Source: a virus
Taxonomy: Duplodnaviria > Heunggongvirae > Uroviricota > Caudoviricetes
IMG/VR virus record: IMGVR_UViG_2778261631_000002
DNA: 64,000 nt
Direction: 5' to 3' (one strand)
Below, piece after piece: positions 58,497-59,503 of the stretch. A program made the position numbers and the translations under genes. The notes beneath the pieces are model-generated. The model searched no databases, was not told the origin of the DNA, and saw only the letters and a program-made list of their open reading frames with translations. How positions within the stretch are numbered: the stretch's first letter is position 1; the number at the start of each line of letters is the position of its first letter.

Positions 58497-58619
58497 TGGT
58501 TATCCCTCAATAAAAGTGACATATTTATTAGATTGCGGTGCCGGGTTCCTCCCGGTGTCCTTTGGCTGGTTATCCACCGTGGACGTGGAAACAAGGAGAA
58601 ATAATGGACAGATATAACC

Positions 58620-59427
58620 ATTTCCCCGCGTGCGCTTAGCCGCATTCACCGCAACGGAAAGAGCATTCTTGGTGGACCTGTAGATTGGGATATGAACCCG
58701 TTACAGGAGAATGCTCTTACCTGTTACGTGCTCCGTTTCGTGGAGCTAACGGCGGGTGATCGGGCCGCACCAGACTGGACTTATTTCAGCGTTATGCTCA
58801 TGCCAGAGAATCAAACTGTGATGGTCGGTGCTGAACTCCGACACAGGGTTGTAGCAAGCCCCGCAAAGCGCGCACTACTGTAGTTGCGGCACATCAGCCT
58901 GTGCATTCACCACAATGTTGAGAACACTGGTTGTCACGCTGCAACGCAACATTTATTCGTAGATTGGGATATGACCCCGTTACGCCAGTGTTCTCAACGT
59001 TGTAGTGCCGGTTACGGTTCCGGCCAGGCCTCTTCCTCAACGGGGTGTTCTCCATACGGACTACCGTTTATTGGTCGTTCCTGCGGTTTATGTTGTGAAG
59101 CCAGATGCTTATCTTCTGGTTGCTTCAAAGAGCTGCACTTCATCACAACGGTAAGAGCACTCGATGCATTTAAGCCAAGCCCCATAAGGGAGAATGCCCT
59201 TACCTGTTGTGTTGTGATGACCGGTGCTGATCTCCGGCTTGCGGTTATTTCAGACTCTCACGGGCGTTTAATTGCCCCGCCGAACAGCTCTTTTCCGCAA
59301 TAGCTGCAATGTCTTTCGCGCATCAGCCTGCGCATTCATCACAACGGTAAGGGTACTTCGTAGGGATTCGAACCCTCTGCCAAGCTCGGCGATCTCCGAC
59401 GTCGCAAAATACCCTTACCTGTTGTGC
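58620..59427. repeat. degenerate direct and inverted repeats with tRNA-like fragments between tciA and tRNA-Thr
   Basis: Three or four diverged copies of roughly 250-bp units sharing CCCTTACCTGTTGTG, CATCAGCCTGYGCATTCAYCACAA and GATTGGGATATGAMCCCGTTAC; a pseudo T-arm (GGGATTCGAACCCT) at about 59355; a 15-bp perfect inverted repeat at 58913-58929 / 58988-59004. Confidence 0.6.
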
Positions 59428-59503
59428 TGGTGCCGATTAACGGACTCGAACCGCTGACATCCTGCTTACAAGGCAGGCGCTCTACCAACTGAGCTAAACC
59501 GGC
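59428..59503 (-). tRNA. tRNA-Thr (anticodon UGU)
   Basis: 76 nt including CCA; cloverleaf with anticodon loop CTTGTAA. Confidence 0.92.

What the first reader, a model, noticed from the sequence alone, without database searches (positions are those of the whole stretch)
58600..59430. Degenerate tRNA-like repeat region embedded between the tci genes and the tRNA-Thr/Asn pair
About 0.8 kb with no convincing ORF contains three or four diverged copies of a unit sharing CCCTTACCTGTTGTG (also found abutting the 3' end of tRNA-Thr and again at about 59853), CATCAGCCTGYGCATTCAYCACAA and GATTGGGATATGAMCCCGTTAC, a pseudo-tRNA T-arm (GGGATTCGAACCCT at about 59355), and a 15-bp perfect inverted repeat (58913-58929 / 58988-59004). 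This looks like decayed tRNA gene duplications and/or structured RNA processing elements in the polycistronic tRNA-tci-ban transcript.
Basis: seen in the sequence. Interest (0 to 1): 0.6.

Follow-up and report, generated by a model that had tools for sequence, protein, structure and literature searches.

The report
Phage P1 tRNA-like structured RNA array
The 0.9 kb between tRNA-Thr and tciA in this phage P1 genome most likely encodes no protein: it is a co-transcribed row of four structured RNA cassettes, each a long hairpin plus a tRNA-like closed fold, from a widespread and largely undescribed family found in enterobacterial phages.

Summary
The repeats are real and non-random. The window is phage P1, and the genes here run on the minus strand: tRNA-Asn, tRNA-Thr, the repeat region, tciABC, tRNA-Ile, ban.

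Between tRNA-Thr and tciA lie four cassettes with a 196-262 nt period. Each cassette has two parts:
- A 19-23 bp "arm" hairpin, CACAAC(A)GGTAAGRGCA...TGCTCTTWCCGTTGTG, with an unrelated apical insert that sometimes carries a T-loop mini-hairpin.
- A "closed module": a closing helix GTTGTGRTGA/TCAYCACAAC, a 5' hairpin, an unrelated core, and a 3' hairpin.

The last module (M4) is a sub-threshold STnc100 (RF02076) core.

Across hundreds of phage and prophage loci the scaffolds are about 90-100% conserved and covary. G·U pairs outnumber A·C mismatches 101 to 10 on the transcribed strand. The inserts fall into dozens of unalignable families. Neighbouring tRNA genes are always co-oriented with the element (202 to 0). 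Sister modules carry canonical D and T arms, so the fold looks tRNA-derived.

Two readings are not supported:
- Recently decayed tRNA copies: similarity to real tRNAs stops at the T arm.
- The annotated ORFs upl and plp: neither is conserved among P1 relatives.

The function is inferred, not shown: processing punctuation that releases stable small RNAs. I rate it a new variant of a known kind, of moderate to high interest.

The parts
59841..59865 (-). Minimal copy of the arm hairpin (CACAACAGGTAAGGGCGCTGGTGTG), about 260 nt upstream of tRNA-Asn
59506..59581 (-). tRNA-Asn (GTT), a genuine tRNA
   Evidence: 74.5 bits
59428..59503 (-). tRNA-Thr (TGT), a genuine tRNA. Hairpin D starts 1 nt after its CCA end.
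   Evidence: 72.9 bits
59340..59426 (-). Arm hairpin D (87 nt, -40.3 kcal/mol). Its apical insert holds a T-loop mini-hairpin at 59362-59376 (AGGGTTCGAATCCCT).
59211..59345 (-). Closed module M1 (135 nt). Closing helix GTTGTGATGA/TCATCACAAC, hp1 at 59318-59333, hp2 at 59221-59237. About 96-98% identical to a module in lambdoid and Stx phages, and present in 856 of 5426 complete E. coli genomes.
59144..59211 (-). Arm hairpin C (68 nt). Its loop, CCCTTATGGGGCTTGGCTTAAATGCATC, is also found in Klebsiella phage 5 and Shigella phage Sf16, where the arms covary.
59092..59149 (-). Mini closed module M2 (58 nt, hp2 at 59101-59119). Homologous copies occur in Sashavirus, and directly upstream of the N-like gene of P22-like phage SPN9CC.
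59007..59091 (-). Extension of M2 ending in an hp2-like hairpin (59007-59024), just before the CACTACAAC base of hairpin B
   Evidence: read directly from the sequence
58908..59007 (-). Arm hairpin B (100 nt, -47.9 kcal/mol). Its arms covary relative to A, C and D, and it has a T-loop-like GGGGTCATATCCC at 58966-58978.
58816..58916 (-). Closed module M3 (hp1 at 58889-58904, hp2 at 58825-58841)
58731..58815 (-). Spacer ending in the hp2-like hairpin CTCCACGAAACGGAG (58731-58745). The same hairpin precedes arm hairpins in other phages.
58647..58730 (-). Arm hairpin A (84 nt), with a T-loop-like GGGTTCATATCCC at 58687-58699
58532..58655 (-). Closed module M4, a sub-threshold STnc100 core (38 bits against a cut-off of 47, model positions 31-147). 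It forms the 5' leader of tciA and is conserved in all P1-like relatives examined.
58062..58496 (-). tciA (TerB-like), the first protein gene downstream of the array
   Evidence: phrog_632, E=1.9e-63

Best explanation
SHOWN.
- The stretch 58532-59426 is read on the minus strand, as part of the same transcription unit as tRNA-Asn, tRNA-Thr, tciABC and ban.
- It is a tandem array of four composite non-coding RNA cassettes.
- Each cassette starts with a long arm hairpin of 19-23 bp. The hairpin has a conserved bulged A, often a U·U mismatch, and an unrelated apical insert.
- Each cassette continues with a closed module whose two ends pair (GUUGUGRUGA with YCAYCACAAC). This closing helix encloses a 5' hairpin, an unrelated core and a 3' hairpin.
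- The GUUGUG segment can pair either upstream, extending the arm, or downstream, closing the module. The two states differ by only about 3 kcal/mol.
- The module has tRNA topology: an acceptor-like helix, a hairpin at the D position, and a hairpin at the T position directly before the 3' strand. Sister modules carry canonical D and T arms.
- The last module (M4) is an STnc100-type core.

INFERRED.
- The cassettes act as tRNA-style punctuation of a long untranslated transcript.
- Host enzymes specific for double-stranded RNA or for tRNA precursors (RNase III, RNase P, RNase E) cut at the arm hairpins and at the base of the closing helix.
- This frees the tRNA-Thr 3' end and releases the closed modules as stable small RNAs.
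- The variable cores of the released modules then act as base-pairing or decoy surfaces, as shown for the related Hfq-dependent prophage sRNAs STnc100 and PasD.
- M4 additionally serves as the tciA leader.
For: Repeats and their limits.

RNA-level selection on the minus strand:
- The arm helix has 19 pairs, 10 of them with changes on both sides. 93.5% of cells are paired, 0 of 500 shuffles reach this, and the slid controls give 36-61%.
- G·U pairs number 101 against 10 A·C mismatches in 65 distinct arm pairs.
- The closing helix covaries when it is anchored independently on hp2.
- RNAalifold recovers the closing helix, hp1 and hp2 on its own.
- The minus strand folds better than the plus strand: -352 kcal/mol, z = -6.8, against -331 kcal/mol, z = -5.1.

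Co-transcription:
- No promoter or terminator lies inside the array.
- tRNA genes within 1.5 kb of the element are on the same strand 202 times and on the opposite strand 0 times.
- Hairpin D starts 1 nt after tRNA-Thr.

tRNA-likeness:
- Class III modules have a canonical D arm and a canonical T arm. ARAGORN draws them as a cloverleaf at its relaxed threshold.
- T-loop hairpins occur in 12 of 74 apical inserts, against 0.065 expected.

Link to expressed sRNAs:
- M4 matches STnc100 at 38 bits, E = 3e-6. Relatives score up to 43 bits.
- STnc100 and PasD are Hfq-dependent prophage sRNAs (PMC8550237; 10.64898/2026.05.13.724894).

Alternative pairings are nearly isoenergetic.

Family breadth.

Not coding.
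Against: - I found no expression, end-mapping or cleavage data for this P1 region, so processing and small-RNA function are inference.
- M1-M3 do not hit any Rfam family at E <= 10, and M4 is below the STnc100 gathering score.
- The modules lack a 3' CCA. Their closing helix is 9-10 bp rather than 7, so RNase P recognition is uncertain.
- The P1 modules lack the intrinsic terminator and U-tail that STnc100 and the Pas sRNAs use, probably for Hfq binding.
- CRISPRi knock-down of trnT, plp, upl, tciA and ban has no plating phenotype on laboratory E. coli (PMC10695390).
- Conserved scaffolds flanking unrelated inserts, and rearrangement breakpoints that all lie in the repeats, fit a DNA-level recombination role equally well.
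Confidence: 0.5

Rival explanations
1. Decayed tRNA gene duplications. The units would be pseudogenes left by local duplication of tRNA genes and would be drifting without function.
For: - T-arm-like hairpins occur in units A, B and D.
- Relatives carry extra tRNAs in or next to the array: tRNA-Tyr in Ro157c2YLVW, and tRNA(UGA) in D6, P7 and CMS-2020a.
- At an 80% threshold ARAGORN calls a spurious 'tRNA-Tyr' that overlaps unit D.
Against: - No tRNA or pseudo-tRNA is called at normal or '-ps' thresholds, and no Rfam tRNA hit appears at E <= 10.
- Similarity to 167 real phage tRNAs stops at 13-18 nt of the T arm.
- The scaffolds are conserved and covary across genera, which drift would not produce.
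- T-loop hairpins sit at non-tRNA positions, for example directly after the 5' arm.
Confidence: 0.08
2. The element works mainly at the DNA level. The conserved inverted blocks would be recombination linkers or the ends of small mobile cassettes (like MITEs or integron attC sites). They would shuffle tRNA and RNA cassettes between phages, and the RNA structure would be a by-product.
For: - Every rearrangement breakpoint among P1, P7, D6, SJ46 and Ro157c2YLVW lies in a repeat.
- Identical flanks and arms enclose three different inserts in lambdoid late leaders.
- 74 apical inserts fall into 46 unalignable families, and 51 cores into 28, while the scaffold keeps about 90% column identity.
- Pieces occur in unrelated phage lineages.
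- The hairpin ends with AAC...GTT and a bulged base loosely recall attC sites (my own knowledge).
Against: - The G·U to A·C asymmetry of 101 to 10 points to selection on one RNA strand, not on double-stranded DNA.
- Co-orientation with tRNA genes is strict.
- I saw no target-site duplication, no recombinase and no other common neighbouring gene.
- MITE families normally share their internal sequence, and these do not.
- This role is not exclusive of an RNA function.
Confidence: 0.2
3. A purely cis-acting leader. The structures would protect about 1.7 kb of untranslated RNA from Rho or from RNases, or promote terminator read-through (like nut or put sites), and no trans-acting RNA would be released.
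For: - Outside P1 the element sits in the pL leader after the CI repressor, within about 4 nt of tR' after Q, before holin and tciA-like genes, and directly before an N-like gene.
- The 3' arm carries a boxA-like TGCTCTTW, followed 13-14 nt later by a small hairpin, which is a nut-like layout (from the sequence and my own knowledge).
- A strong terminator lies upstream in P1, at 60054-60073.
- M4 is the tciA 5' UTR.
Against: - The boxA-like sequence is not conserved (variants include TACCCTTACC, TGTTCTCAAC and CGCTCAAC), covaries with its partner, and is base-paired.
- P1 has no N protein.
- HK022 putL shows no similarity.
- Q-modified polymerase needs no further antiterminator.
- Relatives of the module (STnc100, PasD) exist as discrete sRNAs.
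Confidence: 0.17
4. The region encodes the proteins Upl (58692-58883, plus strand) and Plp (58884-59303, plus strand), as annotated in P1 records.
For: Open reading frames of 63 and 139 codons exist. They are annotated in NC_005856 with predicted sigma-70 promoters.
Against: - upl is absent from P7, D6 and SJ46. In CMS-2020a it shows 11 nonsynonymous against 4 synonymous changes.
- plp is truncated at different points in each relative and gains a stop codon in Ro157c2YLVW. This window differs from canonical P1 by a 173-bp indel, which is not a multiple of 3.
- In NC_005856 plp overlaps tRNA-Thr.
- Neither ORF has a Pfam match.
- Both ORFs are antisense to a covarying RNA structure.
Confidence: 0.03

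Closest known systems
STnc100 (Rfam RF02076) and PasD, Hfq-dependent prophage sRNAs of Salmonella, EHEC and EPEC
   Same: - M4 aligns to STnc100 model positions 31-147. It has the same closing helix (UGGUG.../...CACCA), the same GAAU junction, and the same 3' hairpin CCGGGAGGNACCCGG.
- The setting is the same: lambdoid late regions near tRNA, stx and tciA-like genes.
- M1-M3 share the architecture.
   Different: - M4 scores 38 bits against a cut-off of 47.
- It lacks model positions 1-30 and 148-206, which are the upstream part of the model and the intrinsic terminator.
- M1-M3 give no Rfam hit.
- In P1 the modules are arrayed, have no terminators, and alternate with long arm hairpins that STnc100 loci lack.
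tRNAs and tRNA-like stable RNAs found in phage tRNA clusters or built on a tRNA-like domain (T4 RNA C and D, the tmRNA tRNA-like domain, YrlA). Cited from my own knowledge.
   Same: - Both ends pair in an acceptor-like helix.
- Hairpins sit at the D and T positions.
- Class III sister modules have canonical D and T arms.
- The elements are encoded in phage tRNA clusters and co-oriented with the tRNAs.
   Different: - There is no anticodon arm and no CCA end.
- The closing helix is 9-10 bp.
- The tRNA, tmRNA and YrlA covariance models do not reach threshold.
RtT repeats downstream of tRNA-Tyr in the E. coli tyrT operon (from my own knowledge)
   Same: Tandem repeats of about 180 nt lie directly after a tRNA gene, are co-transcribed with it, contain tRNA 3'-end-like pieces, and are released by processing.
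   Different: - There is no sequence or covariance-model similarity; RtT did not appear.
- The P1 units have hypervariable inserts and a two-part hairpin-plus-module structure.
RNase III processing hairpins of phage polycistronic transcripts (the T7 early region, the lambda N leader). From my own knowledge.
   Same: Repeated, related hairpins of about 20 bp with conserved internal imperfections sit between functional units of one transcript.
   Different: Cleavage has not been tested. The P1 arms carry large variable apical inserts, and they share one strand with the next helix.
GOLLD and ROOL, large ornate non-coding RNAs of phages (from my own knowledge)
   Same: Long, highly structured, non-coding stretches encoded next to tRNA genes in phages and prophages, with unknown function.
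   Different: There is no Rfam hit. The P1 region is modular and repetitive rather than one large fold, and the host range differs.
Lambda-type nut sites (boxA + boxB) and HK022 put RNA
   Same: - The element occupies the pL leader in several lambdoid phages.
- It has a boxA-like TGCTCTTW followed by a small hairpin.
   Different: - The boxA-like sequence is variable and base-paired.
- P1 has no N protein.
- put RNA is not similar.

Membership tests
tRNA (RF00005), or tRNA pseudogene | Cloverleaf with a 7-bp acceptor stem and D, anticodon and T arms; covariance-model score of at least 29 bits, or an ARAGORN call | tested here: not met
   Only tRNA-Asn, tRNA-Thr and tRNA-Met are called. There is no tRNA hit in 58532-59426 even at E <= 10 or with ARAGORN -ps.
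tRNA (RF00005), or tRNA pseudogene | Sequence homology to a parental tRNA that extends beyond a single arm | tested here: not met
   The best blastn-short matches to 167 phage tRNAs are 13-18 nt and confined to the T arm.
STnc100 (RF02076) | Score at or above the 47-bit gathering threshold over the 206-position model | tested here: not met
   M4 scores 38 bits, E = 3e-6, over model positions 31-147 only. P1 relatives score 33-43 bits. M1-M3 are not hit.
STnc100 (RF02076) | Core architecture: closing helix, 5' hairpin and 3' hairpin immediately before the 3' strand | tested here: met
   All four modules fold this way. RNAalifold recovers the consensus, and the closing helix covaries.
STnc100 / Pas sRNAs | Own intrinsic terminator with a U-tail, and Hfq-dependent accumulation | tested here: not met
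   There is no terminator inside the array. Hfq dependence cannot be tested with these tools.
RNase III processing site | About two turns of double-stranded RNA | tested here: met
   The arms are 19-23 bp, -32 to -48 kcal/mol, and covary.
RNase III processing site | Cleavage by RNase III in vivo or in vitro | not testable with these tools
   This needs rnc mutants or purified enzyme.
nut site (boxA + boxB with an N protein) | Conserved single-stranded boxA, a boxB hairpin, and a cognate N protein | tested here: not met
   The boxA-like segment varies and is base-paired. P1 is not known to encode an N protein (my own knowledge).
HK022 put RNA | Sequence or structure similarity to putL or putR | tested here: not met
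   No scaffold motif occurs in the HK022 immunity region.
MITE or integron attC-type mobile cassette | Terminal inverted repeats with a target-site duplication, or a cognate recombinase; copies share their internal sequence | tested here: inconclusive
   Inverted blocks are present, and inserts are swapped between identical flanks. I saw no duplication, no recombinase and no shared neighbouring gene, and the internal sequences are unrelated.
Protein-coding genes upl and plp | An ORF conserved among relatives under purifying selection | tested here: not met
   The ORFs are absent, truncated or interrupted in relatives, nonsynonymous changes exceed synonymous ones, and there is no Pfam hit.

The most novel reading that the evidence does not exclude
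The cassettes belong to a large, recombinationally shuffled family of tRNA-derived scaffold RNAs. These RNAs display dozens of unrelated inserts from a constant frame.

In effect this would be a natural, modular system for "programmable" phage small RNAs or decoys. It is carried in tRNA clusters and in early and late leaders of many enterobacterial phages.

The inserts would target host transcripts, or would distract tRNA-directed immunity and tRNA-processing enzymes. The competing GUUGUG pairings would act as a processing-coupled conformational switch.
Probability: 0.15. Interest if true: 0.85.

Novelty: new variant of a known kind. Interest (0 to 1): 0.6.

Why it matters
- P1 is a model phage, yet this stretch is annotated with two hypothetical proteins that are probably not real.
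- Recognising it as an RNA array links three things: P1's tRNA operon, the poorly understood prophage sRNAs STnc100 and PasD (which interact with virulence transcripts in EPEC), and unannotated "intergenic" parts of tRNA clusters in virulent Klebsiella, Shigella and Salmonella phages.
- One module alone (M1) is present in 856 of 5426 complete E. coli genomes and carries no annotation.
- A conserved frame that tolerates at least 46 and at least 28 unrelated insert families is unusual for bacterial RNAs.
- It gives a concrete question that can be tested: what does the frame recruit, and what do the inserts recognise? It could also be a useful scaffold for engineered RNAs.

Tried and rejected
- **Pseudo-tRNA.** ARAGORN at normal and relaxed settings, Rfam at E <= 10, and blastn-short against 167 phage tRNAs found only T-arm-length similarity.
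- **boxA/nut reading of the 3' arm.** Rejected because the motif varies, covaries and is base-paired.
- **HK022 put RNA.** I fetched the immunity region and found no similarity.
- **"Block S occurs as inverted copies of one 45-nt sequence."** nhmmer gives only weak opposite-strand hits (E >= 1.1), so the inverted similarity is just the pairing requirement.
- **Kissing interaction between the hp1 loop (GCUGAU) and the hp2 loop (AUCAGC).** The loops are complementary, but both are nearly invariant, so there is no covariation test. I left it as an inference.
- **Insert sequences as captured fragments or antisense to other phage genes.** blastn of 125 inserts against 2.9 Mb of loci gave essentially only other element copies. 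My context classifier was crude and the result is not informative.
- **Literature.** No paper in the library contains the scaffold sequences. The P1 transcriptome and Hfq preprint, and an Argonaute paper that uses P1, gave no data on this region.
- **Target-site duplication or empty-site comparison at tR'.** The junction is mosaic and shows no duplication.
- **Covariance model.** I did not build one. Profile HMM, RNAalifold and pair counting were used instead.
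Full report
**Identity and orientation**

The window is a phage P1 genome. Region 58400-60000 is 99.5% identical to Escherichia phage P1 OP279344.1. In the P1 reference annotation the local genes run on the window's minus strand. From upstream to downstream they are:
- dmt;
- the C1-controlled Pban promoters;
- a "dicF-like region";
- trnA (Asn) and trnT (Thr);
- two plus-strand hypothetical ORFs, plp and upl;
- tciA, tciB, tciC, trnI and ban.

ARAGORN and Rfam find three tRNAs in the window: Asn at 59506-59581, Thr at 59428-59503 and Met/Ile(CAT) at 57712-57787.

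**Checking the observation**

The repeat finder reports a four-copy core with spacings of 261, 233 and 196 nt, and the matching inverted repeats.

I built a profile of the 45-nt conserved block (consensus GCCAGTGCTCTTTCCGTTGTGGTGAATGCGCAGGCTGATGCGCGA) from 116 distinct copies in other viral contigs. It hits the 64-kb window only four times, always on the minus strand:
- 59358-59316, E = 3e-12;
- 58930-58889, E = 6.5e-9;
- 58668-58638, E = 2.5e-7;
- 59162-59138, E = 7e-6.

Two minor corrections apply. The T-arm-like sequence is at 59362-59376. The inverted repeat is 23 nt with two mismatches, and its longest perfect run is 14 bp.

**Anatomy on the transcribed strand**

Reading the minus strand, tRNA-Thr is followed after 1 nt by four cassettes. 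Each cassette has two parts.

The first part is a long arm hairpin. Its 5' arm is CRCAAC(A)GGTAAGRGCA, it carries an apical insert of 27-55 nt, and its 3' arm is TGCTCTTWCCGTTGTG. The four hairpins are:
- D, 59340-59426;
- C, 59144-59211;
- B, 58908-59007;
- A, 58647-58730.

The second part is a closed module. It consists of GTTGTGRTGAAT, a small hairpin (hp1, for example GCGCAGGCTGATGCGC), a variable core, a second hairpin (hp2, for example CCGGAGATCAGCACCGG), and then YCAYCACAAC, which pairs back to the start. The four modules are:
- M1, 59211-59345;
- M2, 59092-59149, with an extension to 59007;
- M3, 58816-58916;
- M4, 58532-58655.

A minimal arm hairpin also sits upstream of the tRNAs, at 59841-59865. 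No sigma-70-like promoter or intrinsic terminator lies inside the array on the minus strand.

**Evidence that the structure is RNA**

As RNA, the 931-nt minus strand folds to -352 kcal/mol (z = -6.8), with a centroid close to the minimum-free-energy structure. The plus strand gives -331 kcal/mol (z = -5.1), with a poorly defined centroid.

I collected related copies by scanning IMG/VR with three scaffold patterns and obtained 342 loci. The main results are:
- **Arm helix.** Among 41 distinct arm pairs, the 19-pair helix is 93.5% paired. Ten pairs show changes on both sides. None of 500 shuffles reaches the observed value on any measure, and sliding the partner by 1-3 columns drops pairing to 36-61%.
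- **Conserved imperfections.** A bulged A is conserved, and position 10-35 is a U·U mismatch in 27 of 41 sequences.
- **Strand asymmetry.** Across 65 distinct arm pairs, non-Watson-Crick pairs are G·U 101 times and A·C 10 times on the element strand. This is expected for RNA read from this strand and not for double-stranded DNA.
- **Closing helix.** When located independently through hp2, it covaries: GTTGTGGTGA with TCACCACAAC, GTTGCGGTGA with CACCGCAAC, and GTTGTGATGA with TCATCACAAC. The exceptions are G·U pairs.
- **Independent prediction.** RNAalifold on 19 modules, including P1's M1 and M3, predicts exactly the closing helix, hp1 and hp2, and cannot align the core.
- **Orientation.** tRNA genes within 1.5 kb of an oriented element are on the same strand 202 times and on the opposite strand 0 times.

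**Competing pairings**

The GUUGUG segment is shared. It can extend the arm hairpin by pairing with the upstream CACAAC, or close the module by pairing with the downstream CACAAC. Both partners covary with it.

For the four P1 cassettes the two states differ by only about 3 kcal/mol. The closed module is favoured for D+M1 and A+M4, and the full arm is favoured for C+M2 and B+M3. In the closed state, the inner arm helix abuts the closing helix with no intervening nucleotide.

**Constant frame, unrelated inserts**

The scaffolds show about 90% mean column identity. The inserts do not align with one another:
- 74 distinct apical inserts form 46 unalignable families;
- 51 distinct module cores form 28 unalignable families (examples).

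In lambdoid late leaders the same tR' flank and the same arms enclose at least three different inserts.

Among P1-like phages every rearrangement breakpoint falls in a repeat:
- Canonical P1 lacks window 59162-59334 (173 bp).
- P7 and Ro157c2YLVW lack hairpin D and M1.
- SJ46 has lost 58705-58958.
- D6, P7 and CMS-2020a carry a tRNA(UGA) in the array.

**tRNA-likeness**

There is no pseudo-tRNA in the array. Similarity to 167 real phage tRNAs stops at 13-18 nt of the T arm.

T-loop hairpins, defined as a stem of at least 4 bp around TTCRANY, are nevertheless strongly enriched. They occur in 12 of 74 apical inserts against 0.065 expected, and in none of 51 cores.

The closed module also has tRNA topology: an acceptor-like helix, a short linker, a hairpin at the D position, a variable middle, and a hairpin at the T position directly before the 3' strand.

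A sister class found in 10 loci reads GTTGTGGTG-AA-GCTCAATGGCGAGC...GCCGGTTCGATTCCGGC-CGCCACAAC. That is a canonical D arm and a canonical T arm in the same frame. ARAGORN draws it as a cloverleaf with a 38-nt "intron" at its 90% threshold, and Rfam gives a weak hit to the tmRNA tRNA-like domain.

The modules therefore look tRNA-derived. They form a conserved family and are not local decay products.

**Relation to known RNAs**

At a relaxed threshold the only Rfam family that touches the array is STnc100 (RF02076). M4 scores 38 bits (E = 3e-6) over model positions 31-147, below the 47-bit cut-off. P1 relatives score 33-43 bits.

Genuine STnc100 loci show the same closed core (CATGGTGAAT...CACCGGGAGGCACCCGGCACCATG). 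In those loci the core is followed by its own terminator, has no arm hairpin, and often lies after prophage tRNA genes or after tciA/B-like genes.

STnc100 and the related PasD are Hfq-dependent prophage sRNAs. PasD has RIL-seq targets (PMC8550237; 10.64898/2026.05.13.724894; PMC12370729). No paper in the library contains the arm or class-I module sequences.

**Distribution and context**

- M1 is about 96-98% identical to a segment of lambdoid and Stx phages.
- M1 occurs in 856 of 5426 complete E. coli genomes, at 715 chromosomal and 248 plasmid places, with no annotation under it.
- In mEp460 the element lies in the pL leader and is followed by a terminator.
- In other prophages it begins within about 4 nt of the tR' U-tract after a Q-like antiterminator. 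It also lies before holins and before tciA-like genes.
- In a P22-like phage a mini-module lies directly before the N-like gene.
- Pieces occur in the tRNA clusters of the virulent phages Klebsiella K751 and Shigella Sf16, and in a Sashavirus structural operon.
- The 25-nt junction motif is exact in 34 species genomes, spanning many Enterobacterales and Aeromonas. In several of these a real tRNA follows the module within about 6-12 nt.

**Coding potential**

The ORFs upl and plp are not conserved:
- upl is missing from P7, D6 and SJ46. It shows 11 nonsynonymous and 4 synonymous changes in CMS-2020a.
- plp is truncated differently in each relative and acquires a stop codon in one.
- The 173-bp indel between this window and canonical P1 changes the plp reading frame.
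- No ORF on either strand has a Pfam match.
- CRISPRi of trnT, plp, upl, tciA-C and ban gives no plating defect (PMC10695390).

**Interpretation**

What is shown: the region is a co-transcribed array of four structured, tRNA-related RNA cassettes belonging to a widespread phage family.

What is inferred: the arm hairpins and acceptor-like helices serve as processing punctuation, cut by RNase III, RNase P or RNase E. This would trim the tRNA-Thr trailer and release the closed modules as stable small RNAs. Their variable cores would act in trans, as in STnc100 and PasD, and M4 would double as the tciA leader.

The main rivals are a DNA-level cassette-shuffling role, which may coexist with the RNA role, and a purely cis-acting leader function. 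Decayed tRNA genes and the Upl and Plp proteins are disfavoured.

No expression or cleavage data were available, so my confidence in the mechanism is moderate.

Noticed in passing
window 60054-60073 (-) and 59974-60003 (-): A strong intrinsic terminator (TGCCCATCTTCGGGTGGGCG + T7) lies about 190 nt downstream of the C1-controlled Pban, at the end of P1's annotated 'dicF-like region'. It is followed by a promoter-like CTGACC-N18-GATGAT. That promoter-like block recurs upstream of related elements in the tRNA clusters of Klebsiella phage K751 and Shigella phage Sf16. The tRNA and RNA array may therefore have its own promoter, or may need read-through.
   Followed up: partly
L003 1865-1951, L005 1563-1647, L007 2223-2309: D6, P7 and CMS-2020a carry, inside the equivalent array, an 85-87 nt tRNA with a UGA anticodon and an 8-bp acceptor stem. 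It scores as tRNA-Sec at 43-46.6 bits, just under the 47-bit cut-off. It looks like an unusual Sec-like or allo-tRNA-like serine tRNA, and it is absent from this window.
   Followed up: no
window 59162-59334: This window has one more cassette segment (173 bp: the 5' arm and loop of hairpin C, plus M1) than canonical P1 NC_005856. The difference is explained by recombination between the 23-nt repeats at 59139-59161 and 59335-59357. Cassette number varies among P1-like phages.
   Followed up: yes
L129 about 1640-1700 and 2620-2690 (Klebsiella phage K751): Acceptor + D + T arm tRNA-like sequences that lack an anticodon arm lie next to the element and are not called by ARAGORN. The record annotates no tRNAs or genes in this 3-kb stretch.
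   Followed up: no
L004 5480-5668 (phage mEp460): Rfam finds isrK (67 bits) and a C4 antisense RNA (83.6 bits) in tandem near the Rha/antirepressor gene. This is a P1/P7-type C4 immunity RNA in a lambdoid phage that also shares module M1 with P1.
   Followed up: no
L355 (Geobacteraceae MAG contig) and L372, L358: In some copies the module core itself contains a canonical D arm and T arm (L355). In several genomes a real tRNA starts 6-12 nt after the module's closing strand. A few hits come from non-gammaproteobacterial MAGs or genomes (Martelella, Acidobacteriota, Noviherbaspirillum) and may reflect contamination or horizontal transfer.
   Followed up: no
window 57712-57787 (-): The tRNA called Met(CAT) by ARAGORN is annotated in P1 as tRNA-Ile2 (ileX-like, presumably lysidine-modified). 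It sits between tciC and ban, on the same transcript as the array.
   Followed up: no
window 59915-60083 (-): Weak, sub-threshold Rfam hits to permuted and beta tmRNA models (24 and 14 bits) fall in the leader upstream of the tRNAs. They are probably noise from T-arm-like or terminator structures.
   Followed up: no
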